From IMG/VR virus record IMGVR_UViG_3300045988_168118: a DNA stretch of 64,000 nt, one strand, 5' to 3'. The notes beneath the pieces are model-generated. The model did no database searches. It saw nothing but the letters and a program-made list of their open reading frames with translations, and was not told the DNA's origin. The stretch comes from a virus. Position 1 is the first letter of the stretch. Every line of letters starts with the position of its first letter. Of the stretch, positions 9,224-29,450 are shown piece after piece. A program made the position numbers and the translations under genes.

Positions 9224-10216
9224 CATATATTATATAATATAATACATCAGACTATATCTTCAAATATTTATAAAGGAATATCAGAAAAAACAAAACCTTT
9301 TAATTTACGAATACCTTTTAAATATCGGCAAATAGATGAAGGTGCAACTCCAAAAGCTTTAGCACACTCTTTTTGTGAATTATAAGAGTCAATAAAATTA
9401 CCATTATTATCATATACATAAACTATTTTCTTGTTTGAATTACTCCAACAGTTGATCTTATCTTTTTTATACGATTTAAACTGATATTGTTTATAATGCT
9501 GCTGTTGTTCTGTTATACATCTCCATATACTAGTGTAATCCAAATTAAGCTTTTGTGCAGCTTCATAACCATTTACAAAAGACTGAATGTAATTGCCACT
9601 TAAATCATATTGATGACATTCTTTCATTTCATGTTGTTGTAAATTACTAGTGTAACTATGACGCATATTCTCTAATGCTGTTGACCACTCTAAATTATCT
9701 ATATTATTATTTAATTTATTTCCATCTATATGATTAACTTGCAATTCATCCATCTCTTCACAAGGTTTAAATGCTTTCATAACCAATCTATGAACTGAGT
9801 AATTCTTATCTATTCGATAACGTAAATGCACCATACGATAACCATTATTAGTAACTGATCCTCCTAATAAGGTTTTAGTTGAATCATTACGCACATTACC
9901 ATAATTAGATACACTATAAAAAGTTTCTTGACCGTTAATTAAAATTTTTTTCCAAATTTCTTGTTTTTCCATAATTATTCCTCCTAAATACCTACGGGTA
10001 TTTCGATTATAAAATCTACGGTTATAAAACCTAGTCGTTGAACCTTTGTCTCCGTGAGACACTTGGCTGCGGATTGGAACTACAATAAACGTTTTACTAT
10101 ACCAAGCACATTACTACTTGCCATTATAATATCGCTATTATAACTTAGTCTTTATTGATTATATTCTATCCCCGCAATTTCCCCATATTATCGTGGCAAA
10201 AATTCTCTCTCTATTC
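9224..10216 (-). mobile_element. group-I-like intron interrupting the Walker A (P-loop) codons of the Sak4-like gene; carries an HNH endonuclease
   Basis: Exon 1 ends ...YGEPKSG (ggt, a 3' U) and exon 2 begins KTT... at 9223, together giving GEPKSGKTT. The intron ends ...atatatG (an omega-G). It is structured and GC-richer than the surroundings. Confidence 0.65.
9268..9972 (-). CDS. HNH homing endonuclease (intron-encoded)
   Basis: HRLVMKAF...ELQVNHIDGNKLNNNIDNLEW is an HNH motif. The likely start is MEKQEIW at 9972, with an AGGAGG RBS upstream. The ORF-track start at 10062 is read-through of the intron RNA. Confidence 0.75.
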   Translation of the reverse strand: MEKQEIWKKILINGQETFYSVSNYGNVRNDSTKTLLGGSVTNNGYRMVHLRYRIDKNYSVHRLVMKAFKPCEEMDELQVNHIDGNKLNNNIDNLEWSTALENMRHSYTSNLQQHEMKECHQYDLSGNYIQSFVNGYEAAQKLNLDYTSIWRCITEQQQHYKQYQFKSYKKDKINCWSNSNKKIVYVYDNNGNFIDSYNSQKECAKAFGVAPSSICRYLKGIRKLKGFVFSDIPL

Positions 10217-12606: not shown

Positions 12607-13419
12607 TTATTTATTTCCAGAAGTGCTATTATAACCATAAATATCACTTTGATACATTTGAATCCAAAATTTTTCTTTTTCGTTCAATTCTGTTCTTGAA
12701 CATTCTTCCATCAGTTCAAAAGAAAAGTTCCAGACTCCATCTTGCTGCATTGCTTTATATAATTTGTTTGTTGCGGAAGCATCTATTCCCAATCCGCATT
12801 TAACGTGCTGCTTAAATCTATCTTGAATATTAACACTCTGTCCAATATAACATTGTTTAGTTAATAAATTTGTAATTTTATAAATGCCGCATTTAGCTGC
12901 TGTTCCTAATATTCTATTACACATTTCAGTTGTCTGTTTTTGAAAATAAGTTGACCAAATAATTTTGTTTAAAACAACAGGTTGATGAAAAGAAACTTTT
13001 ATTTTATTTAATGCCATTATATCTGATAATTCATTATCTGTAATAGTTAATTTATAAAAGTTAATCGCTTCTTCTTTTTCTCTTTCGCGGAGTTGAGCCT
13101 GTACGCCAGCACTCAGTGATTCTTTTATTTTATGTAAAGATTCATCAATTTCCTTTTTCTCTTTATCAGTCTTAGCTTTATATAAGTCATATTTTAATTC
13201 TATATCTTCATACGCTTTTTCTAATTCTAAAACATATTGTTCTTTTGCATATTTAATTTTATCTTTATAACTGTTGTACTCTTTTAGTTGACTTTCTTTA
13301 AAATCACTTAATTGGTCTAATATATCATTTTTCTTTTGACAAAAAGTTTTAAAAGCATCAGATTGCTGCTCTGTAAGCAAAGATAATTCTCTCTGCTTGC
13401 CTTTAATCTGCATTATCAA
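12607..13419 (-). CDS. coiled-coil protein with C-terminal GIY-YIG nuclease domain
   Basis: CGIYKITNLLTKQCYIGQSVNIQDRFKQH...YGYNSTSGNK is a GIY-YIG motif. A long coiled coil lies N-terminal to it. Confidence 0.6.
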   Translation of the reverse strand: MIMQIKGKQRELSLLTEQQSDAFKTFCQKKNDILDQLSDFKESQLKEYNSYKDKIKYAKEQYVLELEKAYEDIELKYDLYKAKTDKEKKEIDESLHKIKESLSAGVQAQLREREKEEAINFYKLTITDNELSDIMALNKIKVSFHQPVVLNKIIWSTYFQKQTTEMCNRILGTAAKCGIYKITNLLTKQCYIGQSVNIQDRFKQHVKCGLGIDASATNKLYKAMQQDGVWNFSFELMEECSRTELNEKEKFWIQMYQSDIYGYNSTSGNK

Positions 13420-14247: not shown

Positions 14248-15357
14248 TCAAAAAATGCTACTTACTGTACAGTCTTTTGCATCTTTATCTTCTCTTAAAC
14301 CTTTCCAAAAGCCATGTCTAATTGTTTTTTCGTTAGAATCTAGTTCCATACATTGTATCTTTACTACATGATTAAGATAATTTTCTGGATTCTTAGACAT
14401 ATCTTCTTTTAATTCATCAGAAATTCCAGAATGAATAGTACCTATATCAATAATAGTTCCCTTATCATCATATGCCCCTATTTTTATTCTGGCATTATGC
14501 CAATTATAATAATAAGGTTTTGTCACTGGAATTATTTCTTTTCCCATCTTAAGAAGTTCTTTATAAGTCCCTTGCATCCTAATACCATTCTTATTAATGC
14601 AAAAACCCCAAGAGTCTAATTCTTTTCCATAGTATTCTTTTGTAGGCTCCTCGAATCCTATAATAATAGCATCTATAAAATCTACCTTTTTCGCTTTTAA
14701 ATTGCTGTCTGGGCGTTTTCCAGGCTGATATATCCCATTTTTCTTTTTTAAAACCATTCCCTCTTCACCTGCGGATAAGGCATTTCCAACTCTTTCATAT
14801 AAATTATTTTCCCACACCTCTGCAAGCTCAAGAAAATTATATTTTTTCAAATTATATTTTTTCCAGACTTCTTTTAATATATTATATCTAACTAAACTGC
14901 CAGTATTTAATAAGTTATAGCCATTATATATTAAAATATCATGGATATAATAATGAATCAATCCATATGAACCATTTTGTCTTTCTATTGCTTTACCAGC
15001 CAAACTTCCCATAATGGGGGTAACATTTTTAGAACTTCCTCCTGGATAATAAATTTCTCCAATTAAAACAGTCTTGTCTGGCAAACACTCTAAAGCATTA
15101 ACTATATGAGGGACATTATCATGCTTCTCTGTTAGAAGTCCAGTCTTCTTACTTACTGTCCGCCCAAATAAATAACAATTTTCATTTTTAACAAACTGAT
15201 AAAAAGCTCCATCTTTTTTAAGCTGACCAAAATATTCTCCACTTGAACAAGCTCTCTTTAATTGTTCTTTTGTAGAAGAATGAATTAGCATAGGCTCAAT
15301 CATCAATTCTCCTGCCCCTGGATATAAAGATTCAATTTTTTCCTTACTAAAAACCAA
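14248..15357 (-). CDS. ATP-dependent DNA ligase
   Basis: GQLKKDGAFYQF is the adenylation motif I (K-x-DG). The 369-aa size fits a phage ATP-dependent ligase. Confidence 0.7.
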   Translation of the reverse strand: MVFSKEKIESLYPGAGELMIEPMLIHSSTKEQLKRACSSGEYFGQLKKDGAFYQFVKNENCYLFGRTVSKKTGLLTEKHDNVPHIVNALECLPDKTVLIGEIYYPGGSSKNVTPIMGSLAGKAIERQNGSYGLIHYYIHDILIYNGYNLLNTGSLVRYNILKEVWKKYNLKKYNFLELAEVWENNLYERVGNALSAGEEGMVLKKKNGIYQPGKRPDSNLKAKKVDFIDAIIIGFEEPTKEYYGKELDSWGFCINKNGIRMQGTYKELLKMGKEIIPVTKPYYYNWHNARIKIGAYDDKGTIIDIGTIHSGISDELKEDMSKNPENYLNHVVKIQCMELDSNEKTIRHGFWKGLREDKDAKDCTVSSIF

Positions 15358-17961: not shown

Positions 17962-18357
17962 TTACTCTGCATTGTAAGTAGCTTCTTGGCTATGACTTTT
18001 AATATAAGCTTTTCTTGCAGTAACTCCCGCACCCATTAGCTGATTAAATAGAATATCTGTTGCGGAAACATCTTCAACTGTAATCTGTCTGATAATTCTT
18101 TTCTCAGGATCTGTTAGAGTTTCTTCTGTCTCGTCTACTGACATTTCACCTAATCCCTTCATACGCCCAACCAAATACTTCTTTCCTGTATTGGCTTTTT
18201 TAAATACCTCTAATTCTTCATCATTTTTTAAGTATTTATATTCTTTTCCAATAGTAATTTTATATAAAGGTGGAACTCCCGCGTAAACATATCCATCCTT
18301 TATAAGTTCTGGACAAAAGTTCCATATAAAAGTATAAAAAAGATTTTTAATGTGTGC
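17962..18357 (-). CDS. type IIA topoisomerase subunit B (GyrB-like), exon 2 (C-terminal)
   Basis: AHIKNLFYTFIWNFCPELIKDGYVYAGVPPLY...MKGLGEMSVDETEETLTDPEKRI matches the GyrB TOPRIM end and C-terminus (YKGLGEM...TTMDP). Confidence 0.8.
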   Translation of the reverse strand, partial: AHIKNLFYTFIWNFCPELIKDGYVYAGVPPLYKITIGKEYKYLKNDEELEVFKKANTGKKYLVGRMKGLGEMSVDETEETLTDPEKRIIRQITVEDVSATDILFNQLMGAGVTARKAYIKSHSQEATYNAE

Positions 18358-19339
18358 CATACTCTCTTATATTTCTATAAGTACTGACTATCTCTTACTA
18401 CCAATATTTTGTAGAATACCCATTTCGAATTGCGTATCAATAGCAATCCTACGTAGCCGATCCGCTACTAGTCGATACAGGATTAAACGTTTTTCCATGT
18501 TATGTAATTTACTACTCTTTTAATTGTTCCTCTCGTACAAACACCAAGAAACTTATCATATATTTCACTAATGTTCAAATTTTCTTGTTCTGCTAATCTT
18601 CTAATTTCTTTAACATCCTCTTTAGTTAATTTAGCTTTTTTATTTCCTTTTCGTTTTACTTCCGAAGATATATCTCTTATCATTGATGTATCAACATTTT
18701 TCCAAGTATTTCCTCGATAAGCTTTACAAAAAGCATCATAACTAATTTCAGTAGAATATATTTTATATACTTCCGCAGGAGGAATATTTTGAAGAAAAAT
18801 CATTTCTCTAATATTTAAAACTTTTTCTTCATTTAATCTCGCTTTATTGTTTCTGCTTCCTATTGAATATTCCTCTCCAGGAGTATCCCCAGCATCTAAT
18901 ATATTATACCCAAAATTTCTATCTTTAGAATTATAAAAATCAATCCAACATTGCTCTCTTTCTAATATTTCTTGATTAGTTAAAGAATCACATATTTCAA
19001 CAATTTCAAAATTAAAATTTTCAAATCCGTATTTTCTAATTGCAGAAATTATAGGTCGTTGTTTATTTTTTTTAACTTCATCTCTATAATTTCTTAATCT
19101 CCTTGCAACATCTACAGATTTACCTATATAAATTTTATTATTTTGAAGATTAGTCCATTTGTAAATTGCTTTCATGTTTTACGTCCTTCCCACGGGACTA
19201 CCATATCTTCTGACTTAGGCTCCCCCGTTAGCTATTCTTCTTTTATAACATATATGAATTCCAAATGGAACTCATTTTATTATATTGTCCAAATAACCCC
19301 TGTGATGAGCAGGAAAAGGTATAACAGGCACTGTTACAT
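18358..19339 (-). mobile_element. group-I-like intron in the gyrB-like gene carrying a GIY-YIG homing endonuclease
   Basis: Exon 1 ends ...SDADVDG (ggt). The intron ends ...agtatG. Exon 2 resumes AHI..., which restores the conserved DADVDGAHI. The intron is homologous to the dnaB intron. Confidence 0.7.
18483..19175 (-). CDS. GIY-YIG homing endonuclease (intron-encoded)
   Basis: AIYKWTNLQNNKIYIGKSVDVARRLRNY is a GIY-YIG motif. The C-terminal HTH module is similar to that of the 5783..6493 protein. Confidence 0.8.
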   Translation of the reverse strand: MKAIYKWTNLQNNKIYIGKSVDVARRLRNYRDEVKKNKQRPIISAIRKYGFENFNFEIVEICDSLTNQEILEREQCWIDFYNSKDRNFGYNILDAGDTPGEEYSIGSRNNKARLNEEKVLNIREMIFLQNIPPAEVYKIYSTEISYDAFCKAYRGNTWKNVDTSMIRDISSEVKRKGNKKAKLTKEDVKEIRRLAEQENLNISEIYDKFLGVCTRGTIKRVVNYITWKNV

Positions 19340-20851
19340 ACCATCGACGTCCGCGTCTGACATTATAATTATTTTACCATATCTTAAATCTTCTTTATCG
19401 TAAGTTACTTTCATAGTTTTAGGATCAATTTTAAGTCCAAAAGCATCAATCATAGTCATAATTTCAGCATTTTTCTGAATTTGAGTTAGTGTAGCTTTTT
19501 GACAATTTAAAATTTTTCCTCTCACAGGCATAACCGCTTGGAATTCATTATTTCGTGCAGTTTTCAGATTACCTGAAGCACTATCACCCTCAGTCACGTA
19601 TATTTCGCACTTCATTCTATCCTTTGAATAACAATCCGCGAGTTTAGAATCAAATTTTAAAACTTTTTCTTTTTTCTTCTTTTCTTTTTCTCTTGCAAGT
19701 TCTCTTGCCTTTTTTGCGGCTTCACTTGCCTTTTTCGCGGCGATTGCTTTATCAAAAATTACTTTAATCTCTTTTTCATTTGACAAAAGCCACTCTTGAA
19801 TATTTTCCGCAATAATACCAGTAAAAGGCGTCATATCAAGCTTTACAATCCTAGATTTAGTCTGAGCGTCATAGGATACTCCTGGAGCTGTAATATTAAA
19901 AGCTACCATTAGTCCCTCTTGTATGGCAGATCCTTCTAAGTTATCATCTTTAGTTTTCAACCACTTTTTCTCTCTAAAGAATTTATTAAATTCTCTAGTA
20001 ATTAAAGACTTAATCTGTGTAATATGCGGTCCTGCATCTGTTTCTCCTGTATTAACATAAGAAATCATATTAGTTGAATAATTTTTTGTATATGTCAATA
20101 CTAAATCAATTTTATTTTTACCATTACTATGTTTAATGCATAGTCTATTGTTAATAATTTCAGTATCTTTAACTTTATCTGAAACTAAGTCATCAAGACC
20201 ATTTTTTGAAACATATTCAATAGCATCTTTTCCATTATGGGTTAAGTTAATTGTCAATCCTGGACATAAACAAACTAATACATGAAATAATTCTTTTATT
20301 CTTTTCTCATCTATTTCCGCGTGATTAAAAAATTGTTTATCTGGTTTCCAGGAAACAATAGTTCCAGTATGATGATCTCTCTGCAATCCTGTCTCTCTTG
20401 ATTTAAAAATTCCATCTTCAAAATAGATAGATTCAAAATGACCATCTCTAAAAGTTTTAACATTTAGATTACTTGAAAGAAAATTTGTTAATTTACTTCC
20501 AATTCCATTTAAACCTAAAGCTGTGCCTTCATACACACCATCTTCTGAAAACTTACCAGAAGTATTTAAAACATCAAAAGAAGCTTGCAAAACGCTTTCC
20601 CCATCTTCTCTCATAATATTCACTGGAAAGCCTTGAGCAAAATCTTCTACTGTACAAGAGCCATCATCTTTATAATCTACATTTATTATGTTTCCATTTC
20701 CCGCTTGAAACTCATCAATAGCATTAGATACAATCTCAATCAATAGCTGGGTTGAATACTCCGTGGACCCACAATAAACCCCAGGTCTAAGTCGTGTAAA
20801 CTCCCGCGGGCTTAATGATTCTATTGACTTCTCATTATATAAATTGCCCAT
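19340..20851 (-). CDS. type IIA topoisomerase subunit B (GyrB-like), exon 1 (GHKL ATPase plus transducer plus start of TOPRIM)
   Basis: LEIVSNAIDEFQAGNG is the GHKL N-box. The exon ends ...KIIIMSDADVDG. Confidence 0.8.
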
Positions 20852-21451: not shown

Positions 21452-21997
21452 TTACTCCTTTTGTTTATTACACCTTTCATAGAGTTGAAGAGATCTTTCT
21501 TTTCTTAGACAATCATTAGAATTTTCAAAAGCCATAGTAGCTAACATTAAGTCAACAAAAGAAAGAGTATCTGGGTGCATAACAATATTTTCTTTTCTTT
21601 TCATCCACCATGAATATTCATTATTATAACTAAAATTCTCTTTCATATAGGCTTTTCCAGCACCAATATAATCGCAAACTAATTCTAATGCGTATTTATA
21701 TGGCATTTTAATTGGTTTACCTCCGCAATCCGCATTATCAATCCAATATTCATAATGATGCAGATTTCTGCCTTTATGGTGCAACCATGCTTTTGAATAT
21801 CCGTTTTCTTTTTTACATTTATTTATTGGACTATCTGTTCCAGTATAATATTTAACTGATTCAAAAAATTCTGTAGGAGAAAATTTTGACATATCATGCT
21901 TAATTCCTTGCCAAAACAATCCAGCTTTTTGACAATTTAAAAATACATAACATTTATGAGTTAATATAGTTTTAAAATGTGACATCATTTTATTCAT
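21452..21997 (-). CDS. hypothetical protein (His-rich WLHHKGRNLHHYEYW motif)
   Basis: A 181-aa ORF; no confident family assignment was possible by eye. Confidence 0.4.
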   Translation of the reverse strand: MNKMMSHFKTILTHKCYVFLNCQKAGLFWQGIKHDMSKFSPTEFFESVKYYTGTDSPINKCKKENGYSKAWLHHKGRNLHHYEYWIDNADCGGKPIKMPYKYALELVCDYIGAGKAYMKENFSYNNEYSWWMKRKENIVMHPDTLSFVDLMLATMAFENSNDCLRKERSLQLYERCNKQKE

Positions 21998-22139: not shown

Positions 22140-23429
22140 TTAAAGTTTTTTAGTGTAGCTTAAATAAATCCAACCTGCTCCACTTAATAGTTTACCCCAT
22201 TTTCCGCTTGTCTCAACAACAGTATAAGTACCTTTTTTAATTTCTCCTAATTCCTTACGATTTTTTCCTTTTGAGTCAAAGTACTTCATAGTTCCTGTGA
22301 TTTGAACAGCAAAAGGTGCTTTTGGATAAGTAGAGTTAGATGTAGTGTGTTTTGGCGTTGAAGATGAAGTAGTAGATTTTTTTAATTTTTTTGTAACTTT
22401 TTCCGCGAGTTCTCCCATTCTTGAATACATCCAATCTCCTGGACAACTCTTATTAGCAAACCAGCGGTGAACGGTTAAAAGCATCTCATTTGAAGCAGGA
22501 GTGTAATTTAATGCTTTTTCCTTGTTACTAATCCATAATAGTTTATTTTTACCATTTCTCCTACAAATATCAACGCATAACTCTACTAGCTTATTGTAAA
22601 CTGTGCTATTAAAAGTATATGGTTGACTGCTATCACAAGCACATTCAATAGTTACTGCTCTTTGGTCATTTGCATTACTAGAACTACACCATGAGCGATT
22701 TTTTTCCTCTACAATTAAAGCTACCCCGCCTTCAGTACCGATTCCATAATTACATGAAGCTTGTACACCAGGGTTAGTGAAACATCCTGCGATTCCGCTT
22801 GCGGATAATTGACCAACAACGCAGTGAGGAGTAATTCTATCAATAGTATGAGTTCTTGCTCCTGAATGATTAGGACTTAATTTAGTATAAGTTACTAAAG
22901 AACTATTTGTATATCCCATATTAATGTCTCCTTTTATATCGTATTTAGTTAAATTCCATTTCTCAATAAGATTACATATTTTTTGTACATAAGAATTATC
23001 AGTAGCATATCCACCATTTTTAATAATTTGTATCGCGGTTTTGTAGTTTTGTTCTTCTACAAGTCCGGGGTACCGTAATTTAGAACCATTTTTAGCTTGA
23101 GACAGATATAAAGAATGATCTTCTACACTTTTGTCTATGGATGGATATTTTCTAAAGTCCGCAGTGATTGTTGTTATTATTCCAGGTTTGTATTCTTCTT
23201 TTGTCCTTTTAGTGTATTTAGATTTACCATCCCAAGCACTTTTCCAAGTATTGCCAGATAATGTAGTTTTCATTCCAAATAAATTATTTGCGTTTATTGC
23301 TAAGTCAGTTGTTCCATAGCCAGATTCTAAGCAAGCTTGTGCAATAGTGATAGAAGCTAAGATTCCGCTCTGTTGATAATCTAGAGTAGCTTTTGAGCCA
23401 ATATACTCAATAAATTCTTTTTCTGTCAT
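22140..23429 (-). CDS. multidomain endolysin: N-acetylglucosaminidase plus Amidase_2 (MurNAc-L-Ala amidase) plus SH3b
   Basis: GILASITIAQACLESGYGTTDLAINANNLFGMK is a glucosaminidase motif. HSGARTHTIDRITPHCVV...SCNYGIG is PGRP/Amidase_2-like. The C-terminus GTYTVVETSGKWGKLLSGAGWIYLSY is SH3-like. Confidence 0.75.
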   Translation of the reverse strand: MTEKEFIEYIGSKATLDYQQSGILASITIAQACLESGYGTTDLAINANNLFGMKTTLSGNTWKSAWDGKSKYTKRTKEEYKPGIITTITADFRKYPSIDKSVEDHSLYLSQAKNGSKLRYPGLVEEQNYKTAIQIIKNGGYATDNSYVQKICNLIEKWNLTKYDIKGDINMGYTNSSLVTYTKLSPNHSGARTHTIDRITPHCVVGQLSASGIAGCFTNPGVQASCNYGIGTEGGVALIVEEKNRSWCSSSNANDQRAVTIECACDSSQPYTFNSTVYNKLVELCVDICRRNGKNKLLWISNKEKALNYTPASNEMLLTVHRWFANKSCPGDWMYSRMGELAEKVTKKLKKSTTSSSTPKHTTSNSTYPKAPFAVQITGTMKYFDSKGKNRKELGEIKKGTYTVVETSGKWGKLLSGAGWIYLSYTKKL

Positions 23430-23500: not shown

Positions 23501-24757
23501 TTACATTAACTGAGCTAATTGAGCTATTCTGCTACGATGAATATTTTTTAAAGTGACTTCACCATAAATAGGTTCTCCTTTGAAAATCTCTGATACTCTT
23601 CTCATTCCATTATTATTTCCTGCATATAAAGAAGAATCGACTTGAGTTTCGCTGTCTCCATCTAAAATACAAATTGAATCTTCTCCAATTCTTTGTAATG
23701 CAAGTCTCATTAGTTCTATATCCATATTCTGTGCTTCAGAAATATAAATACCCGCTTTCATATTAGTAGTGTCATAACCTCTAATATCTGACATTGGAAG
23801 CAAAACAATTTTTCCTTCCTCTATCATTTTTTCAGCGGCGATTTTGTCTCCCAATTTACTAGATAGTAGATTTCCTATCTGAGAGTCCAGAAGCTTTTCA
23901 TCTTTACTTCCAGGATAAAAACCAAGCTTTGCCGAACCCGCAGTTGCCACTGTGTTACAGAAAATAATAATCTTTTCAATTTCATGTTTTTCTAGTTTAT
24001 CAAAGAGGAAACCAAAAGATAGGTAGCTTTTACCAGTTCCCGCGGAACCTCTTATCATGGTAATTTTGTTGCTGTTCAAACTATCCATAGCCAACTGCTG
24101 ATATGCGTCTTTTGGCTTTATTTTTCCGAACATATTGCTATTGAAAGTTGTAAAAGGAACTTCTATAAATCTATCCTGAGCTCTTTTATATTTGCTAATA
24201 ATTTCATCTTTATTTTTGAGAATAAGATACTGGTTAATTAAAAACTCATTTAAAAACTCTGAAGAATTATAAATTTTATTATAGGCATCTGCTAGTTCTT
24301 CATCTGAATTACAGCAAATTTCTCTAAATCCGCAGTAGTCATTTTGCTTTTGGTCTAAGTATTCTACTTGTAAGCCAACCGATTTTGCGAGTTGTTTACA
24401 GCATAAATCTTCAGTAACAAAAATTAAATTTTTGTCTTTTTGCTTTAATGCGGTTAAGATAATTCTACTATCATTATTGTCAGATAAAACTAAATATTTT
24501 TTTAATTCAGAATCCCATTTAGTTTTATAATTGATAACACAATAACTATTATCATATTTGTTTAAAAGTTGAATCAATCTTCTAGCTCTAAATTTGATTT
24601 CAGAATCTTTAGATGCAGATATTTTTATGTTTTCTAATTCTTTAAGAGTAATATTGCTAATATAAAAATAGTTATTAAACGCATGATGTAATTCATTTAA
24701 TAACGCACAAGTATCATAAAAATACATATTATTCTCCTTCTTCATCATCTTCTTCAT
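23501..24757 (-). CDS. phoH: PIN-domain plus PhoH-like ATPase (YlaK/PhoH2-like)
   Basis: The N-terminus MYFYDTCALLNELHH is PIN-like. IRGSAGTGKSYLSFG is a Walker A, and the surrounding sequence matches the PhoH core. Confidence 0.75.
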   Translation of the reverse strand: MKKMMKKENNMYFYDTCALLNELHHAFNNYFYISNITLKELENIKISASKDSEIKFRARRLIQLLNKYDNSYCVINYKTKWDSELKKYLVLSDNNDSRIILTALKQKDKNLIFVTEDLCCKQLAKSVGLQVEYLDQKQNDYCGFREICCNSDEELADAYNKIYNSSEFLNEFLINQYLILKNKDEIISKYKRAQDRFIEVPFTTFNSNMFGKIKPKDAYQQLAMDSLNSNKITMIRGSAGTGKSYLSFGFLFDKLEKHEIEKIIIFCNTVATAGSAKLGFYPGSKDEKLLDSQIGNLLSSKLGDKIAAEKMIEEGKIVLLPMSDIRGYDTTNMKAGIYISEAQNMDIELMRLALQRIGEDSICILDGDSETQVDSSLYAGNNNGMRRVSEIFKGEPIYGEVTLKNIHRSRIAQLAQLM

Positions 24758-25032: not shown

Positions 25033-25533
25033 CTACCCATTTTTCTTTTTCTTTTTAATTTTATCTACTTTTTTTAGAAGATCTTCTCTTTCATTAATGA
25101 TATTGGATAAATTATTTTCTAAAAGGTTAATTGCAACTAAGATACTTTTTCTTTTGCTTTCAAGAATATAAATTTGTTTTCTCATAGCTTTAGCTTCATA
25201 AGATTTTTCATTAAAAGCTTTTGACTGAGAAATATTAGAATAGCAATCTTTCAAAGCTTTTATTTTATTTTTTGTATCTTTAAGTATTTGCTTTTGACAT
25301 CTGATTCTAGCTTTTATTAAGGCACATTCGCACCCAAAATAACGAGAAGCTTCTTTTTTATCTTCTTCTTTTAACTGAGATTGACCATAAAACTTTCCAT
25401 ATTTAGTGGTTATAATGACAGTTGAAAGTCCTATGTCTTTATTGTAATTAGAATATATAAGCTTTTCCTTCATATTATTTCTCCTTAAAAATATTATTTT
25501 TATTATTATAACATAAAATATTAAAAAAAGCAA
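25033..25533 (-). CDS. hypothetical coiled-coil protein
   Basis: A 166-aa Lys-rich ORF. Confidence 0.4.
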   Translation of the reverse strand: MLFLIFYVIIIKIIFLRRNNMKEKLIYSNYNKDIGLSTVIITTKYGKFYGQSQLKEEDKKEASRYFGCECALIKARIRCQKQILKDTKNKIKALKDCYSNISQSKAFNEKSYEAKAMRKQIYILESKRKSILVAINLLENNLSNIINEREDLLKKVDKIKKKKKNG

Positions 25534-25542
25534 GTTGAATAA

Positions 25543-25809
25543 TCAACTTGCTTTTTTATCAGCTTTTTTAAAGCTAACGGCTGATTTAAAAAATGAACTT
25601 ATAACTCCCATAGTTCCACAAAATAAAGGTATCATTGCAGGTGAAATATTAATTCCTAACAAAGCTAATCCTTGACAAAATACTGCCCCAAAAGTAATCT
25701 TAATTAACCAGCCTACAAAAAATGCAAGCACAAAGTTAATTAAAGGTGAAAAAACGACTAATAAAATTGCTAAAGCTACAACGCCTAAACAGCCAACTGC
25801 ATCTTCCAT
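25543..25809 (-). CDS. small two-TM membrane protein (holin-like topology)
   Basis: An 88-aa ORF with two hydrophobic segments and a charged C-terminus. A terminator hairpin overlaps its stop codon at 25528-25557. Confidence 0.4.
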   Translation of the reverse strand: MEDAVGCLGVVALAILLVVFSPLINFVLAFFVGWLIKITFGAVFCQGLALLGINISPAMIPLFCGTMGVISSFFKSAVSFKKADKKAS

Positions 25810-25980
25810 ATTACTCTCCTTAAAATGTTATTTTTTATATATATTAAAAATCGAATTAAATAATTAACTTGTTTTTATTAGTTTTTAAGAAATAACTATT
25901 TAGAAATAAACCAGCATATTATAATATAAAAAATTAAAAGTAGTAAAACACCTGCATAAATAATCATATCTTCCATATTA

Positions 25981-26514
25981 TTATCCTTTCTTCATCTTAA
26001 TTTCTTTAACAATAGTTTCTAATAATACAGGCGTACAATTATGTGAATCAACGCCAACATGATACATATAAGGTCTATCTTCAAAGAAATTATCCTTCTG
26101 GTGAGTATGTCCGTATAAATTGATTACTCTAAGATCATCTCCATTCGCGGTTATCGTTGGATAATGGGTTAAGATAAACATATGTTTTTTATATTTTAAT
26201 CTGTATCCCATTTGAATATCTTCAAAAAAGTGATTAGTTTTAAATGCTTTTAAGCGGGCTTCGGTATCATGGTTTCCATAAGCCAGATATTTCTTACCTT
26301 TGAGTCTGTTGATTAGTCTTAAATTAGCCTGAAGATCAGAGCCCATCGCCACGTCTCCTAAGAGATAAACAATATCATCATCAGACACAGTATCATTCCA
26401 ATTTTTAACAATAGCTTCATTCATTTCATTTACATTAGAAAAACCACGCTTTTTCCAGATAAAATCTTTATTATGATTAAAATGTAAATCACTTGTAATA
26501 AAAATATTAGACAT
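25981..26514 (-). CDS. calcineurin-like metallophosphoesterase (candidate end-healing phosphatase)
   Basis: IFITSDLHFNH...LGDVAMGS...GNHDT...GHTH are the metallophosphoesterase motifs. The gene sits immediately downstream of the Pnk-like kinase. Confidence 0.7.
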   Translation of the reverse strand: MSNIFITSDLHFNHNKDFIWKKRGFSNVNEMNEAIVKNWNDTVSDDDIVYLLGDVAMGSDLQANLRLINRLKGKKYLAYGNHDTEARLKAFKTNHFFEDIQMGYRLKYKKHMFILTHYPTITANGDDLRVINLYGHTHQKDNFFEDRPYMYHVGVDSHNCTPVLLETIVKEIKMKKG

Positions 26515-26523
26515 TTTCTTCTC

Positions 26524-27015
26524 CTATTCTGCTTTAATTTTAAGATAAAGTTTTCCATTTGCATCAACAATGTAAATTTTTTCAATTCCTTCTTCAAAAG
26601 AAGGTTTTTCTAAATTAAAATACATATTTTTAATTACTTCTGGCGGAACATAAGAACGAGTACCTTTTCTATTTTCATTTCTTTTTAGACACTCTTCAAG
26701 AGATGTTTTCATCCAGATTACATTTATATGCGGATTTCCGCAAATATTTCTTAAAAGTTTATTTCTTGAAGTTCTATTCAAATGAGTAGCATCTGCAAAG
26801 ACATTTTTTTCTTCTAATAAATACTGATTGATTTGATGTATAAAGAGCTTAAATACTTCTTTTTCTTTTGAGAAGTATTCTTCGCCTTCTTTAACTAACG
26901 AAAATCTAATATCGTCTCTTGAAACATACTTATCAAAATATGGATTGATATGATTCTTTACCCAGGTACTTTTTCCTGAACCTGGACATCCTGACAAAAT
27001 ATATAAGTTAGCCAT
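26524..27015 (-). CDS. polynucleotide 5'-kinase (T4 Pnk kinase-domain-like)
   Basis: MANLYILSGCPGSGKSTWVKNH, SRDDIRFS and NENRKGTRSYVPPEVIKNMY align with the T4 Pnk motifs GCPGSGKSTWA, NRDD.RQ and NSKRGTKAVP. Confidence 0.75.
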   Translation of the reverse strand: MANLYILSGCPGSGKSTWVKNHINPYFDKYVSRDDIRFSLVKEGEEYFSKEKEVFKLFIHQINQYLLEEKNVFADATHLNRTSRNKLLRNICGNPHINVIWMKTSLEECLKRNENRKGTRSYVPPEVIKNMYFNLEKPSFEEGIEKIYIVDANGKLYLKIKAE

Positions 27016-27031
27016 AATATACCTCCTTTAG

Positions 27032-27388
27032 TTAGATTCTATGACCACAATTATAATCTCTTTTAGAGTTCCAACATTTGCCGCTTTTATTATATTTGCA
27101 ATCTTGTTTAGTACAGCTTGTTAAATCAGCTATTGGAAGCTTTTTCCCATCTACAAATCTACCAAGTTCAAACTCTTCAAGAAAGTCCTCATATCTATAA
27201 GAACCAAAAGGTCTAATTTCAGCATGATTTATTTGTTTTCCACAATATAAGCAGAATAAATTTTTTAAATGTCCAGCTTCTCTCTGTTGCCCTATACGTC
27301 TAGCGATAGGAATACCCCTTTTTCCACACTCTACACAATAAAAGTCACTTTTTGTAATTTCTTTATTTCTTGACATAATTATTACCAA
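27032..27388 (-). CDS. zinc-ribbon protein
   Basis: Carries the pairs CVECGK...CLYCGK. Confidence 0.4.
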   Translation of the reverse strand: MVIIMSRNKEITKSDFYCVECGKRGIPIARRIGQQREAGHLKNLFCLYCGKQINHAEIRPFGSYRYEDFLEEFELGRFVDGKKLPIADLTSCTKQDCKYNKSGKCWNSKRDYNCGHRI

Positions 27389-27489
27389 CTCTCTTTCTTT
27401 TTATATATTTATTATATCATATTTTTATAAAAATATAAAGATAGATCTTTTATTTAATCTATCTTTATATTGTTTTATAATGATAAAGT

Positions 27490-27717
27490 TTATTTAAACG
27501 TAAACCTTGTCAAAAATACTTTAAAATCCGCGGCAGTTGAAGGGAAAAAGACTTCTATTCCAGAAAACACATCAATAGACATCATTCCCATGATAGATTT
27601 TCCATCAATTACATATCTTCCCTTATGAACATCTACTTCGCCATCGACTTTCATAGCTTCATTAACAAATTCTCTAATTTCATCAATGTCAATTAACTTA
27701 ATTTTTACGCTTTCCAT
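27490..27717 (-). CDS. hypothetical small protein
   Basis: A 75-aa ORF followed by a terminator-like hairpin at about 27441-27470. Confidence 0.35.
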   Translation of the reverse strand: MESVKIKLIDIDEIREFVNEAMKVDGEVDVHKGRYVIDGKSIMGMMSIDVFSGIEVFFPSTAADFKVFLTRFTFK

Positions 27718-27833
27718 ATTTATTCCCTTCCTTTTTATTTTATTTATCTTATTATTTTAAAGTTTCGCCACAATGTTTCCTATACTTTATAAAATATAAA
27801 GTATAGGAATATTGAAAAATTTATTTAATACTC

Positions 27834-29078
27834 TTAAGAGTGATAGCGAAGCAAGAATTCATTGCTTACAGCTTTAAAGCTATTGGCTCCGTCATAAGAA
27901 CGAAATACAAGACCTTCCCTCATTCCGCCATCAATAGCAGATTTTCCAGTTGCAATTTTCAACAGCTCATCTACAGTATCTGGTAAAATAAAATGCTCGC
28001 TCACAATAGGAACACAAGGAATATTGTATTTTGTTAAAATATCAGTCATTTCTCTTGGATTGAATCTTTTTGTAAGACCTCCCTTAAAACCAATAATAAG
28101 ATTAAAAGCCATAAAGTCATGGTTATCCATGTCATAATCTCTCTTTTGAATATCTTTACCATAAGTCTCTCCCTGCACAGTTACAAAGGAGATGGTCTTA
28201 TACTTTTCATTGAAATCTTCAAATAATTTTTCAAGTACTTTTTCCATATTGTATCTTTTGGACATGGCAAGATATACGTTAGTATCATAATAGCAAGCCT
28301 TGCTTGGATCATCAAAAGATACGTTACGAGAGCAGACACGATAATCTTTTTTCCAGGCTTCCTTTTTCAAGGTAAAAGTGGTAGAAGTTCCATCAATTTT
28401 TTCTGTTGCAAATAATTCATCTTTGTTAGCGAGAATCCAAGACATATTCTGAATTCTTTCCTCATCAGTCTTTTTAACCCAAGCTGGGAAACCGCCTTTC
28501 TTATCTTTAGCTTTTCCAAAGATGAAAAACATTACTTTTTTGCCCCAGTTTCTATTCATCATCCAGCGTGCCCAAGGCTTAGAAAACAGTTCTGGTTTAC
28601 GCTGAGCCATTTTTTTATACTTATCTGCGGAAGCTGCTTTTCGCTTATTATCATCTGCATCAGAATATTTTACACCTAGTTCAGCTGTCAAAAAATGTCC
28701 TTCTGGATAAGAAGCTCCTTTTTTTGGATTAAAGATACAATAAACTCCTTCTTCATTCGTATAAGTATCCCAATCAAAATCTTTTGGATGCATAAGCAAA
28801 CCTTGAGATACGAAGTTACCTTTTCCGCCAAAAGTATACTTCTGTGTTTTTACCTTATAATGTTTTTTCTCTAAAAAAGCAAAGACTTCAGTTTCTGGAA
28901 CTTTAGAATCAATCTCAAAATAAATTGCGAGATCACCAGGTTTAAAAGTTCCTTTTCTGGTCATAATACGCCATCCGCCCACAACCGCGGCTTCACAATT
29001 ATCAGAACCTGTAATTGGCTCAATTTTATCAATAGTTACAACATAGCAAAGTTCTCTTTGTCCATTTTTATTTAACAT
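27834..29078 (-). CDS. RNA ligase-like nucleotidyltransferase (N-terminal OB-like domain plus KxDG adenylyltransferase)
   Basis: ATEKIDGTSTTF is motif I around residue 229. The long N-terminal domain resembles Rnl5 (Dra/Ngr-type) RNA ligases. The gene lies in the same block as the Pnk-like kinase and phosphoesterase. Confidence 0.55.
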   Translation of the reverse strand: MLNKNGQRELCYVVTIDKIEPITGSDNCEAAVVGGWRIMTRKGTFKPGDLAIYFEIDSKVPETEVFAFLEKKHYKVKTQKYTFGGKGNFVSQGLLMHPKDFDWDTYTNEEGVYCIFNPKKGASYPEGHFLTAELGVKYSDADDNKRKAASADKYKKMAQRKPELFSKPWARWMMNRNWGKKVMFFIFGKAKDKKGGFPAWVKKTDEERIQNMSWILANKDELFATEKIDGTSTTFTLKKEAWKKDYRVCSRNVSFDDPSKACYYDTNVYLAMSKRYNMEKVLEKLFEDFNEKYKTISFVTVQGETYGKDIQKRDYDMDNHDFMAFNLIIGFKGGLTKRFNPREMTDILTKYNIPCVPIVSEHFILPDTVDELLKIATGKSAIDGGMREGLVFRSYDGANSFKAVSNEFLLRYHS

Positions 29079-29093
29079 ATATATTTCTCCTTT

Positions 29094-29363
29094 TTATTTA
29101 ATTATTTTAAAAGATATTCCCATCAGCAGGAAAGGTAATCCTATTAGGATTTTTTCTTTTGTTGAAAGGTTGGTTAGTAAAGACATAAATGAAATCATAC
29201 TTAAAAAAGAAAAAATACTGCGATTAACGTCTACCGTTACTATTATTCTACTATTGTTATTATTTTCTTCTTCTTTCTTTTTTCTAATTCTTTTCTGTTT
29301 AGAATTAGGAGTATTACTCCTTGTTTCAATATATGTTTTATTATCCCTTGTGTAAGTTTTCAT
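29094..29363 (-). CDS. hypothetical basic protein
   Basis: An 89-aa ORF. Confidence 0.35.
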   Translation of the reverse strand: MKTYTRDNKTYIETRSNTPNSKQKRIRKKKEEENNNNSRIIVTVDVNRSIFSFLSMISFMSLLTNLSTKEKILIGLPFLLMGISFKIIK

Positions 29364-29450
29364 TTCCTTCCTTCTTTCTTTCCTTTTGATATAATAATTA
29401 TATCATATTTTTTTTAAAAAATAAAATAAGTTTTTTTAACTTACTTTATT

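What the first reader, a model, noticed from the sequence alone, without database searches (positions are those of the whole stretch)
25981..29078. Split RNA healing-and-sealing set: T4-Pnk-like kinase, metallophosphoesterase and Rnl-type RNA ligase
26524..27015 matches the T4 Pnk kinase domain motif by motif (GCPGSGKSTW, RDD.R, NxxRGT..VP). Immediately downstream is a calcineurin-type phosphoesterase, a candidate 2',3'-cyclic or 3'-phosphatase. Two genes upstream is a KxDG nucleotidyltransferase with an N-terminal OB-like extension, as in Rnl5 RNA ligases. These are the three activities of C. thermocellum Pnkp/Hen1-type and T4 Pnkp/Rnl1 tRNA-repair systems, which counter host anticodon nucleases such as PrrC and RloC. 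This fits with the phage investing in a large tRNA set.
Basis: partly seen in the sequence, partly recalled or inferred. Interest (0 to 1): 0.6.

Follow-up and report, generated by a model that had tools for sequence, protein, structure and literature searches.

The report
Phage RNA end-healing and sealing genes
An uncultured gut or rumen phage carries, side by side, an RNA ligase, a polynucleotide kinase, a metal-dependent phosphoesterase and a small zinc-ribbon protein that together look like a kit for mending cut RNA; the theme is known from phage T4, but this combination of parts has not been described.

Summary
On the minus strand, 27834-29078 encodes an Rnl5-type RNA ligase. It has an N-terminal OB domain plus a nucleotidyltransferase domain, and every mapped active-site residue of the Naegleria enzyme NgrRnl is present. 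26524-27015 encodes a stand-alone polynucleotide-kinase-type P-loop kinase with the T4 and Clostridium catalytic residues. 25981-26514 encodes a binuclear metallophosphoesterase (MPE177) with all metal-binding motifs.

The linkage is not a one-off. In 58 of 79 non-self relatives found through the ligase, kinase and MPE177 lie on the ligase strand, in the same order in 57. The median kinase-to-phosphoesterase gap is 2 nt.

It sits directly upstream of the kinase in 16 of 16 kinase-anchored loci.

Some relatives replace kinase plus phosphoesterase with a kinase-HD fusion next to the same ligase type. This swap supports a heal-and-seal role.

Caveats:
- The phosphoesterase belongs to the uncharacterised aq_1665 clade, not the lambda/Clostridium Pnkp clade, and is common in phages that lack the kinase.
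- Characterised Rnl5 enzymes seal nicks in duplexes.
- No activity or target, tRNA or otherwise, was tested.

Phage suites of tRNAs, ligases, kinases and phosphoesterases are already described. I rate this a new variant of a known kind, of moderate interest.

The parts
27834..29078 (-). Rnl5-type ATP-dependent RNA ligase (414 aa): N-terminal OB domain plus nucleotidyltransferase domain, with a longer inter-domain linker than NgrRnl
   Evidence: PF09414 1e-19 and PF21189 5e-18. PHROG 968 'RNA ligase' 2e-58 over the full length. NgrRnl 5COT 2e-25. NgrRnl residues Arg4, Asp53, Thr145, Asp146, Arg149, Lys170, Asp172, Arg190, Glu227, Glu312 and Lys326 (PMC7261155) map to R8, D57, T204, D205, R208, K227, D229, R251, E304, E388 and K402. 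All are at least 90% conserved in 72 relatives.
27032..27376 (-). Zinc-ribbon protein (114 aa from the ATG at 27376; the mechanical ORF starts at TTG 27388). CxxC...CxxC ribbon plus a Cys-rich C-terminal tail. A constant upstream neighbour of the kinase.
26524..27015 (-). Stand-alone polynucleotide 5'-kinase-type P-loop kinase (163 aa)
   Evidence: AAA_33 2e-17; PHROG 505 2e-25. T4 Pnk, CthPnkp kinase and Pnkp1 among the PDB matches. 32-38% identity to pseT products of T4-like phages. K15/S16 form the P-loop. R33, D34, R37 and T77 correspond to T4 Arg34, Asp35, Arg38 and Thr86 (PMC3902929). R116 and R120 are invariant.
25981..26514 (-). Binuclear metallophosphoesterase of the aq_1665 clade (MPE177, 177 aa); candidate 3'-end-healing enzyme
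29451..30254 (-). Second metallophosphoesterase (MPE267, 267 aa) upstream of the ligase on the same strand; a possible accessory or alternative 3'-end enzyme
   Evidence: Metallophos 7e-13; PHROG 1649 2e-21. Present within 6 kb upstream of the ligase in 27/79 loci. Abuts the ligase in L072.
27411..27439 (-). Promoter-like site (TTTATA-17-TATAAT with extended TG) just upstream of the zinc-ribbon gene. It would make zinc-ribbon, kinase and phosphoesterase one transcription unit (inferred).
   Evidence: the scan found no more sites than shuffled sequence, so this is weak. Gene gaps of 16 nt (zinc-ribbon to kinase) and 9 nt (kinase to phosphoesterase), each with a Shine-Dalgarno-like sequence.
27433..27470 (-). 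15-bp AT-rich hairpin followed by a U-rich tract, after the HPr-like ORF; a possible terminator separating the upstream genes from the zinc-ribbon/kinase/phosphoesterase unit
   Evidence: Minimum free energy -18.7 kcal/mol, z -6.3 against shuffles.
27777..27809 (-). 15-bp perfect hairpin directly after the ligase gene, with no U-tract
   Evidence: Minimum free energy -17.4 kcal/mol, z -5.9.

Best explanation
The region encodes a multi-gene RNA end-healing and end-sealing pathway of a large, low-GC, tRNA-rich phage. The host is probably a Bacillota species of an animal gut or rumen.

Inferred mechanism:
1. A host or competitor ribonuclease cuts an RNA and leaves 2',3'-cyclic-phosphate (or 3'-phosphate) and 5'-OH ends.
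2. The stand-alone kinase phosphorylates the 5'-OH.
3. The adjacent metallophosphoesterase opens and removes the 2',3'-cyclic or 3'-phosphate, yielding a 3'-OH.
4. The Rnl5 ligase, via a lysyl-AMP intermediate at K227, joins 3'-OH to 5'-phosphate where the two ends are held together in a base-paired context.
5. The zinc-ribbon protein packed in front of the kinase is proposed to be an RNA-binding or assembly subunit.

Shown here: the domain identities, intact catalytic residues, and conserved linkage. Inferred: the substrates, the order of steps, the role of the zinc-ribbon protein, and the biological purpose. That purpose would be counter-defence against RNA-cutting host systems, complementing the phage's own 31-32 tRNA genes.
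For: **Domains and catalytic residues.** All three enzymes have intact active sites.

**Ligase-anchored search, IMG/VR.**
- Of 79 non-self loci with 43-63% ligase identity, 59 carry the kinase and 61 carry MPE177.
- Other neighbours are much rarer: the large vault-protein-like gene in 12 and PhoH in 11.
- The 59 trio-bearing loci (including the near-identical L001) form 40 ligase clusters at 90% identity and 16 at 70%.
- The ligase-to-kinase distance ranges from 36 to 4057 nt, while the kinase-to-phosphoesterase gap has a median of 2 nt.

**Kinase-anchored search.** Zinc-ribbon upstream in 16/16 loci, MPE177 downstream in 15/16, ligase within 8 kb in 12/16.

**Module swaps.**
- L075 has a 312-aa kinase-HD fusion just upstream of an Rnl5 ligase. 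It is 32% identical over its full length to Bacillus phage Nate gp173 (AAA_33 + HD), which abuts an Rnl1-type ligase.
- In L073 the MPE177 homologue overlaps the ligase start, and the kinase is followed by a second phosphoesterase of the same type.
- L130 has ligase, kinase and phosphoesterase directly abutting.

**A separate DNA ligase.** An ATP-dependent DNA ligase (14248-15357, PF01068 4e-15) sits in the replication module, so Rnl414 is not needed for DNA replication.

**Precedents.** T4 Pnkp plus Rnl1 and C. thermocellum Pnkp heal and seal cut tRNA (PMC1920235). Phage suites of tRNAs, ligases, kinases and phosphoesterases have been catalogued (PMC7824862).
Against: - No biochemical evidence exists for any of these proteins.
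- MPE177's nearest structure, aq_1665, has no known function. It lacks the GDxxDR arginine of the lambda/Pnkp phosphatases.
- Its family occurs in 1,525 cultured phage records. In 47 of 82 MPE-anchored genome loci no kinase lies within 4 kb. The family is therefore not dedicated to this pathway.
- Characterised Rnl5 enzymes need a nicked duplex, and DraRnl has been tied to DNA repair after irradiation (PMC5397189).
- Cultured phages with Rnl5 ligases (Pakpunavirus, pf16, Mic1) have no kinase or MPE177 nearby.
- 14 of 80 ligase loci show none of the tested partner genes, and some kinase loci (L084-L086) lack the ligase within 8 kb.
- Part of the synteny may simply reflect shared ancestry within one phage clade.
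- The kinase profile scores PSTK about as well as it scores polynucleotide kinases.
Confidence: 0.6

Rival explanations
1. The same enzymes repair nucleic-acid breaks in phage DNA rather than RNA. The kinase and phosphoesterase clean 5'-OH/3'-phosphate DNA ends or ribonucleotide-containing nicks. The Rnl5 ligase seals nicks whose 3' side is RNA, as proposed for Deinococcus DraRnl.
For: Rnl5 enzymes seal duplex nicks with an RNA 3'-OH strand and a DNA or RNA 5'-phosphate strand, and loss of DraRnl sensitises Deinococcus to radiation (PMC5397189, PMC4408790). T4 and C. thermocellum kinases act on DNA as well as RNA (PMC1920235). RNase H, gyrase and a DNA ligase lie 5-13 kb away.
Against: The cluster lies outside the replication module, which has its own DNA ligase. 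Its neighbours are RNA-oriented: PIN-PhoH2-like helicase, a tRNA array and a DUF2828 'RNA-binding protein'. The kinase-HD plus Rnl1 arrangement in Bacillus phage Nate parallels known RNA-repair pairs.
Confidence: 0.15
2. The genes are neighbours through shared descent of a collinear genome region and do not act in one pathway. MPE177 has the same unknown job it has in the many phages that lack the kinase, for example hydrolysing a nucleotide or signalling molecule.
For: The PHROG 547 family is found in 1,525 cultured phage records, and no kinase or ligase is annotated beside it in Enterococcus phage 53. 47/82 MPE-anchored loci lack a kinase. All trio loci come from related gut or rumen phages.
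Against: The kinase-to-phosphoesterase gap stays at about 2 nt while the rest of the region is reshuffled. The pairing is rebuilt with a paralogous phosphoesterase in L073 and replaced by a kinase-HD fusion in L075. Other large neighbours are retained five times less often.
Confidence: 0.15
3. The kinase is not a polynucleotide kinase but a tRNA-dependent or small-molecule kinase of the PSTK/KTI12/gluconokinase group, so the set is not a healing pair.
For: PSTK is the top single-sequence PDB match (1e-7) and nearly ties in the profile search (6e-15). KTI12 scores 1e-8. NCBIfam selen_PSTK scores 1e-13, far below its cutoff.
Against: 12 of 15 profile matches in the PDB are polynucleotide kinases, with CthPnkp first. 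The acceptor-site residues R33, D34, R37 and T77 match T4 Arg34, Asp35, Arg38 and Thr86. The protein lacks the C-terminal tRNA-binding domain that makes PSTK about 250 aa long. PHROG 505 is the best phage family.
Confidence: 0.05

Closest known systems
Bacteriophage T4 Pnkp + Rnl1 tRNA restriction-repair pathway
   Same: A phage-encoded kinase, 3'-end phosphoesterase and ATP-dependent RNA ligase. The kinase domain is 32-38% identical to pseT kinases of T4-like phages and shares their catalytic residues.
   Different: In T4 the kinase is fused to a HAD/DxDxT phosphatase. Here it stands alone next to a binuclear metallophosphoesterase. The ligase here is Rnl5 (N-terminal OB domain, nick-sealing type), not Rnl1 with its C-terminal tRNA-specificity domain. 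An extra zinc-ribbon gene is present.
Bacterial Pnkp-Hen1 system (Clostridium thermocellum Pnkp; Capnocytophaga Pnkp1)
   Same: Kinase followed by a metallophosphoesterase, in the same order as the Pnkp domains. The CthPnkp kinase is the best profile match in the PDB (2e-15).
Rnl5 nick-sealing RNA ligases (Deinococcus DraRnl, Naegleria NgrRnl)
   Same: The domain order and all mapped active-site residues match. The protein ends shortly after motif V, as in NgrRnl.
   Different: The linker between the OB and nucleotidyltransferase domains is roughly 60 residues longer. It contains conserved basic and aromatic residues typical of the phage PHA02142/PHROG 968 subgroup. The score is below the NCBIfam TIGR02306 equivalog cutoff (83 vs 151 bits). 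Here the ligase is linked to end-healing genes, a context not reported for DraRnl or NgrRnl in the papers read.
Kinase-HD fusion plus RNA ligase of phages (Bacillus phage Nate gp172/gp173; a kinase/3'-phosphatase of phage RM378 is cited in PMC2190708)
   Same: A kinase of the same family (34% identity) lies next to an RNA ligase. One relative of this window's phage, L075, uses exactly this fusion beside an Rnl5 ligase.
   Different: The phosphoesterase module is an HD domain fused to the kinase, and the ligase in Nate is Rnl1-type.
RNA-repair suites catalogued in jumbo phages (Iyer et al. 2021, PMC7824862)
   Same: tRNA arrays together with ATP-grasp RNA ligases, polynucleotide kinases, phosphoesterases, Pol-beta nucleotidyltransferases and TROVE-like proteins. 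That paper notes calcineurin-like phosphatases in 'a small number' of phages.
   Different: The paper names Rnl1 and Rnl2 as the main ligase families and HAD as the main phosphatase. The Rnl5 / stand-alone kinase / aq_1665-type phosphoesterase / zinc-ribbon arrangement is not described in the passages read.

Membership tests
Rnl5 RNA ligase family (DraRnl/NgrRnl) | N-terminal OB domain preceding the nucleotidyltransferase domain | tested here: met
   PF21189 PHA02142 OB-fold 5e-18 at residues 13-77. Residues 6-81 align to NgrRnl 3-79.
Rnl5 RNA ligase family (DraRnl/NgrRnl) | Nucleotidyltransferase motifs with the lysine nucleophile and the metal- and ATP-binding residues | tested here: met
   K227, D229, R251, E304, E388 and K402, plus R208, T204 and D205, align to NgrRnl K170, D172, R190, E227, E312, K326, R149, T145 and D146. 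They are conserved in 72 relatives.
Rnl5 RNA ligase family (DraRnl/NgrRnl) | No C-terminal domain after motif V | tested here: met
   The alignment reaches residue 412 of 414 and NgrRnl chain position 337 of 340.
Rnl5 RNA ligase family (DraRnl/NgrRnl) | Score above the curated equivalog threshold (NCBIfam TIGR02306) | tested here: not met
   83.4 bits against a cutoff of 151. The Pfam domain thresholds are passed. The shortfall coincides with the long inter-domain linker.
Rnl5 RNA ligase family (DraRnl/NgrRnl) | Mn-dependent sealing of duplex nicks with an RNA 3'-OH strand | not testable with these tools
   Needs enzyme assays.
Polynucleotide 5'-kinase (T4 Pnk / bacterial Pnkp kinase clade) | P-loop GxxGxGK[ST] | tested here: met
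   GCPGSGKST at residues 9-17. P11, G12, G14, K15 and T17 are invariant.
Polynucleotide 5'-kinase (T4 Pnk / bacterial Pnkp kinase clade) | General-base Asp with its partner Arg, and the Thr that anchors the first phosphodiester (T4 Asp35, Arg38, Thr86) | tested here: met
   D34, R37 and T77 align to them and are invariant in 27 homologues.
Polynucleotide 5'-kinase (T4 Pnk / bacterial Pnkp kinase clade) | Lid arginines contacting the gamma phosphate | tested here: met
   R116 and R120 are invariant and lie in the NRKGTR segment that aligns to the T4 KRGTK segment.
Polynucleotide 5'-kinase (T4 Pnk / bacterial Pnkp kinase clade) | Clear separation from PSTK/KTI12-type kinases | tested here: inconclusive
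   Profile scores: CthPnkp 2.4e-15, PSTK 5.5e-15. The PSTK C-terminal domain is absent.
T4 Pnkp (bifunctional kinase-phosphatase) | Kinase fused to a DxDxT (HAD) 3'-phosphatase domain | tested here: not met
   The protein is 163 aa with the kinase domain only. T4 matches stop at T4 residue 144.
Bacterial Pnkp / lambda-phosphatase-type 2',3'-phosphoesterase | Binuclear metal-binding motifs DxH, GD, GNH[DE], H, GHxH | tested here: met
   D9xH11, G53-D54, G80-N81-H82-D83, H117 and G135-H136-x-H138 are invariant or nearly so.
Bacterial Pnkp / lambda-phosphatase-type 2',3'-phosphoesterase | GDxxDR motif with the phosphate-binding arginine | tested here: not met
   The sequence is GDVAMG at residues 53-58.
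Bacterial Pnkp / lambda-phosphatase-type 2',3'-phosphoesterase | Closest structural relatives are lambda phosphatase or the Pnkp phosphatase | tested here: not met
Bacterial Pnkp / lambda-phosphatase-type 2',3'-phosphoesterase | Hydrolysis of 2',3'-cyclic phosphate and 3'-phosphate RNA ends | not testable with these tools
   Needs enzyme assays.
Pnkp-Hen1 RNA repair system | Hen1 2'-O-methyltransferase partner | tested here: not met
   No methyltransferase family was found among the 40 window ORFs scanned against Pfam. Small ORFs were not all scanned.
T4-type tRNA repair (Rnl1-based) | Rnl1-type ligase (PF09511) with a C-terminal tRNA-specificity domain | tested here: not met
   Only PF09414 and PF21189 match; there is no PF09511 hit.

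The most novel reading that the evidence does not exclude
A four-gene phage RNA-repair module in which an Rnl5 nick-sealing ligase is the sealing enzyme. The 3'-end healing enzyme would be an aq_1665-type metallophosphoesterase, giving that structurally solved but functionally blank family its first assigned role. A bL33-like zinc-ribbon protein would serve as the substrate-recognition or assembly subunit. If so, this clade of gut and rumen phages would supply the missing physiological context for Rnl5 ligases.
Probability: 0.3. Interest if true: 0.6.

Novelty: new variant of a known kind. Interest (0 to 1): 0.42.

Why it matters
The papers read here describe the physiological roles of Rnl5 ligases as uncharted. 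A conserved genomic partnership with end-healing enzymes in dozens of diverged phages gives a concrete, testable context for them.

It also suggests a substrate class for the aq_1665 metallophosphoesterase clade, which is found in well over a thousand cultured phage genomes under the bare label 'phosphoesterase'.

It flags a small zinc-ribbon protein as a candidate new component of RNA repair.

In practical terms, it points to a second counter-measure, alongside a large tRNA set, that gut and rumen phages of Bacillota may use against RNA-cutting defences.

Tried and rejected
- **Near-identical cultured phage.** None found; megablast of 25500-30500 against INPHARED gave no match.
- **Linkage in cultured phages with Rnl5 ligases.** Pakpunavirus PseuPha1, pf16 and Mic1 have no kinase or MPE177 within 4 kb.
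- **Rosetta-stone fusions.** The 120 best homologues of MPE177 and of the kinase are all single-domain proteins, so these lists gave no fusion evidence. Fusions appeared only as kinase-HD.
- **Zinc-ribbon protein as a true bL33 or any Pfam family.** No significant hit; Ribosomal_L33 matched 1 of 28 members at E 0.05. Only the fold resembles bL33.
- **Defence-system models (PADLOC).** No hits for cluster proteins.
- **Literature on aq_1665/1XM7.** Nothing on function.
- **Rfam.** Only tRNAs in the window.
- **5-hmdU DNA kinase reading of the kinase.** Rejected: 16 bits over 28 residues, below the cutoff.
- **Ligase as DNA ligase or capping enzyme.** Rejected: no such family matched, and a separate DNA ligase exists.
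- **Promoter and terminator scans.** Counts were not above shuffled expectation, so the operon structure rests on gene spacing and two hairpins only.


Full report
**What is there**

The window is a low-GC (about 30%) phage-like sequence with nearly all genes on the minus strand. It carries 31 tRNA genes by ARAGORN between 43.3 and 59.0 kb, and 32 by Rfam.

The finding's coordinates coincide exactly with three open reading frames on the minus strand:
- a 414-aa protein at 27834-29078;
- a 163-aa protein at 26524-27015;
- a 177-aa protein at 25981-26514.

Two further ORFs lie between the first and second. One is a 75-aa HPr-like protein (27490-27717). The other is a 118-aa zinc-ribbon protein (27032-27388), whose real start is probably the ATG at 27376, judging from homologue alignments.

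**The ligase**

The 414-aa protein matches Pfam RNA_ligase (1e-19) and the PHA02142 OB-fold domain (5e-18). It matches PHROG 968 'RNA ligase' over its full length (2e-58) and the Naegleria gruberi RNA ligase structure in both domains (2e-25).

[quoted passage not shown] Eleven of them map onto R8, D57, T204, D205, R208, K227, D229, R251, E304, E388 and K402. All eleven are at least 90% conserved across 72 relatives.

The protein ends 12 residues after motif V, as Rnl5 enzymes do. It differs from NgrRnl by a longer linker between the domains. That linker is conserved in the phage subgroup. The protein falls below the NCBIfam equivalog cutoff (83 vs 151 bits).

No DNA-ligase or capping-enzyme family matched. 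A separate ATP-dependent DNA ligase sits in the replication module at 14248-15357.

**The kinase**

The 163-aa protein matches AAA_33 (2e-17) and PHROG 505 'polynucleotide kinase' (2e-25). It is 32-38% identical to the kinase halves of pseT proteins of T4-like phages.

A profile of 27 homologues finds the following in the PDB:

| Match | E-value |
|---|---|
| C. thermocellum Pnkp kinase | 2e-15 |
| PSTK | 6e-15 |
| Capnocytophaga Pnkp1 | 4e-14 |
| T4 Pnk | 2e-11 |
| Mammalian PNKP | 4e-8 |

The P-loop (K15, S16), the general-base Asp and its Arg (D34, R37), and R33 and T77 correspond to T4 Arg34, Asp35, Arg38 and Thr86, as described in PMC3902929. R116 and R120 in the lid are invariant.

The near tie with PSTK means sequence alone cannot exclude a tRNA-dependent kinase. 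However, the protein lacks PSTK's C-terminal domain.

**The phosphoesterase**

The 177-aa protein matches Metallophos_2 just above threshold (27.8 bits against 27) and PHROG 547 strongly (1e-46). In 32 homologues the five metal-binding motifs of binuclear metallophosphoesterases are invariant.

Motif II reads GDVAMG, lacking the Asp-Arg of GDxxDR. A literature search on aq_1665 returned nothing on function.

**Is the grouping meaningful?**

*Ligase-anchored search.* A search of IMG/VR returned 80 loci. One is 97% identical and probably the same phage; the rest have 43-63% ligase identity.
- Of the 79 non-self loci, 59 carry a kinase homologue and 61 an MPE177 homologue within 6 kb.
- All of these are on the ligase strand, and all but one are in the same order.
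- The zinc-ribbon gene is detected in 43 loci and the second phosphoesterase MPE267 in 27.
- The other large neighbours are retained far less often: the vault-protein-like gene in 12 and PhoH in 11.
- The 59 trio-bearing loci (including the near-identical L001) form 40 clusters at 90% ligase identity and 16 at 70%.
- The ligase-to-kinase distance ranges from 36 to 4057 nt, with varied inserts. One insert is a complete NAD-salvage cassette, in an NCBI metagenome contig.
- By contrast, the kinase-to-phosphoesterase gap has a median of 2 nt.

*Kinase-anchored search.* Among 16 non-self loci, the zinc-ribbon gene is immediately upstream in all 16. MPE177 is immediately downstream in 15, and the ligase lies within 8 kb in 12. 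The tightest unit is therefore zinc-ribbon, kinase and phosphoesterase, with the ligase usually just upstream.

*In the window itself.* These three genes are separated by 16 and 9 nt, each with a Shine-Dalgarno-like sequence. A strong hairpin and a promoter-like site precede them. The promoter scan as a whole was no richer than shuffled sequence.

**Module swapping**

Three variants argue for function rather than mere ancestry.
- In L075 the kinase plus phosphoesterase pair is absent. Instead, a 312-aa kinase-HD fusion lies just upstream of the Rnl5 ligase. It is 32% identical end to end to gp173 of Bacillus phage Nate (AAA_33 + HD), whose gene abuts an Rnl1-type ligase.
- In L073 the MPE177 homologue overlaps the ligase start, and the kinase is followed, with a 4-nt overlap, by another phosphoesterase of the same type.
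- In L130 the ligase, kinase and phosphoesterase directly abut.

Kinase plus some phosphoesterase plus some ATP-dependent RNA ligase is thus rebuilt with different parts. The same logic underlies T4 Pnkp/Rnl1 and bacterial Pnkp (PMC1920235, PMC2190708).

**Limits**

- The MPE177 family is much broader than the module. It occurs in 1,525 cultured phage records. In Enterococcus phage 53 no kinase or ligase is annotated beside it.
- In an MPE-anchored search of species-representative genomes, only 27-30 of 82 loci have the kinase directly upstream. These tend to be the closer relatives. 47 loci have none within 4 kb.
- Cultured phages with Rnl5 ligases show no such neighbours.
- Characterised Rnl5 enzymes seal nicks in duplexes with an RNA 3'-OH strand. 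DraRnl has been linked to recovery from DNA damage, and the authors state that it remains open whether such ligases repair DNA, RNA or both (PMC5397189).
- The window holds three metallophosphoesterases (25981-26514, 29451-30254, 38593-39318). The third is of the NinI/lambda type. Assigning the 3'-healing role to MPE177 rests on gene order alone.
- Nothing here identifies the RNA target or any host nuclease.

**Most likely mechanism**

I judge a split heal-and-seal pathway for RNA ends the best explanation (confidence about 0.6):
1. the kinase phosphorylates 5'-OH ends;
2. MPE177, possibly with MPE267, removes 2',3'-cyclic or 3'-phosphates;
3. the Rnl5 ligase joins the ends in a base-paired context;

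That tRNA is the target, and that host anticodon nucleases are the cause, is a reasonable analogy. The tRNA array and nearby RNA-oriented genes support it, but I would put it below 0.4.

Rivals are DNA-nick or DNA-end repair (0.15), co-location without joint function (0.15), and a non-polynucleotide kinase (0.05).

**Comparison with what is known, and novelty**

A comparative study of jumbo phages has already described phage suites combining tRNAs, RNA ligases, polynucleotide kinases, phosphoesterases, Pol-beta nucleotidyltransferases and TROVE-like proteins. It notes that calcineurin-like or HD phosphatases replace HAD in a small number of phages (PMC7824862). The theme is therefore not new.

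The following are not described in the passages I read:
- the use of an Rnl5-type ligase;
- the stand-alone kinase packed with an aq_1665-type phosphoesterase;
- the constant zinc-ribbon partner.

I rate the finding a new variant of a known kind, with moderate interest (0.42). Its main value is a testable physiological context for Rnl5 ligases and for a very common but uncharacterised phage phosphoesterase family.

**Source and host**

The closest contig is IMGVR_UViG_3300045988_178161 (68 kb). Relatives are 90-180 kb contigs from rumen and animal or human gut metagenomes. Many are binned into MAGs labelled Bacilli, Lachnospiraceae, Oscillospiraceae, Ruminococcus and similar.

The lysin at 22140-23429 matched relatives whose lysins carry glucosaminidase and amidase domains. 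A Bacillota host is likely but not shown.

Noticed in passing
window 30756-33242 (-): An 828-aa protein matches eukaryotic major vault protein: Pfam MVP_shoulder 1e-22 and Vault_3 6e-10; PDB rat/human MVP 3e-17 over residues 455-754. It is conserved at 50-61% identity next to the repair genes in many related loci. Phage MVP homologues from human gut were reported in a 2023 preprint (10.1101/2023.11.10.566534), which in the passages searched mentions neither RNA ligases nor tRNAs.
   Followed up: partly
window 41743-43224 (-): A 493-aa protein with DUF2828 + DUF7788 domains (PHROG 850 'RNA-binding protein', 6e-122) lies directly next to the tRNA array. It may be a TROVE/vWA-like protein of the kind listed among phage RNA-repair components. 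It has no PDB sequence match.
   Followed up: partly
window 33369-37102 (-): A run of genes encodes a MoxR-like AAA_5 ATPase (33369-34574), DUF7192 (34582-35421) and an SPFH/Band-7 + flotillin protein (35633-37102). It lies between the vault-protein-like gene and a Pol-beta nucleotidyltransferase.
   Followed up: no
window 38593-39318 (-) and 37529-38575 (-): A third metallophosphoesterase of the NinI/lambda-phosphatase type (PHROG 246, 6e-32) lies next to a 348-aa Pol-beta-type nucleotidyltransferase with a C-terminal HTH. Either could also belong to RNA-end processing.
   Followed up: no
window 27490-27717 (-): An HPr-like 75-aa protein (PTS-HPr 6e-6) keeps the Ser46-region motif (GKSIMGMMS). 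It has no histidine at the position expected for the phosphorylated His15. It is present after the ligase in only 7 of 79 relatives.
   Followed up: partly
window 23501-24757 (-): A PIN + PhoH protein (PhoH 5e-30, PIN_4 4e-9; NCBIfam 'RNA 5'-3' helicase PhoH2' 6e-31, below cutoff) lies a few genes downstream of the phosphoesterase. It recurs there in many relatives.
   Followed up: partly
window 17962-20851 (-): Gyrase B appears split. The N-terminal and Toprim parts are at 19334-20851, and the GyrB C-terminal domain is at 17962-18360. A GIY-YIG endonuclease gene (18483-19175) lies between them. Several other GIY-YIG/HNH homing-endonuclease genes are scattered through the window (5783-6493, 9268-10062, 12607-13419, 44876-45550).
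   Followed up: no
window 43502-43558 (-): Rfam reports a 57-nt tRNA match (41 bits) that ARAGORN did not call. It may be a truncated or unusual tRNA.
   Followed up: no
window 46042-46473 (-): A SocA/Panacea antitoxin-domain protein (3e-18) is encoded inside the tRNA array.
   Followed up: no
L104 4278-7363 (NCBI GCA_002120585.1, NFYZ01002423.1): In one relative, a four-gene NAD-salvage cassette is inserted between the ligase and the kinase: isochorismatase-type nicotinamidase, NAPRTase, a CTP_transf_like adenylyltransferase and NAD synthase. An HD_4 protein replaces MPE267 upstream of the ligase.
   Followed up: no
window 25909-25989 (-): A 26-codon hydrophobic ORF (MEDMIIYAGVLLLLIFYIIICWFISK) begins within the stop-codon region of the phosphoesterase gene.
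   Followed up: no
window 21452-21997 (-); also L021 10263-10727, L075 3696-4223, L104 13580-14146: A DUF5662 protein (1e-35) recurs near the ligase region in several relatives. Its function is unknown.
   Followed up: no
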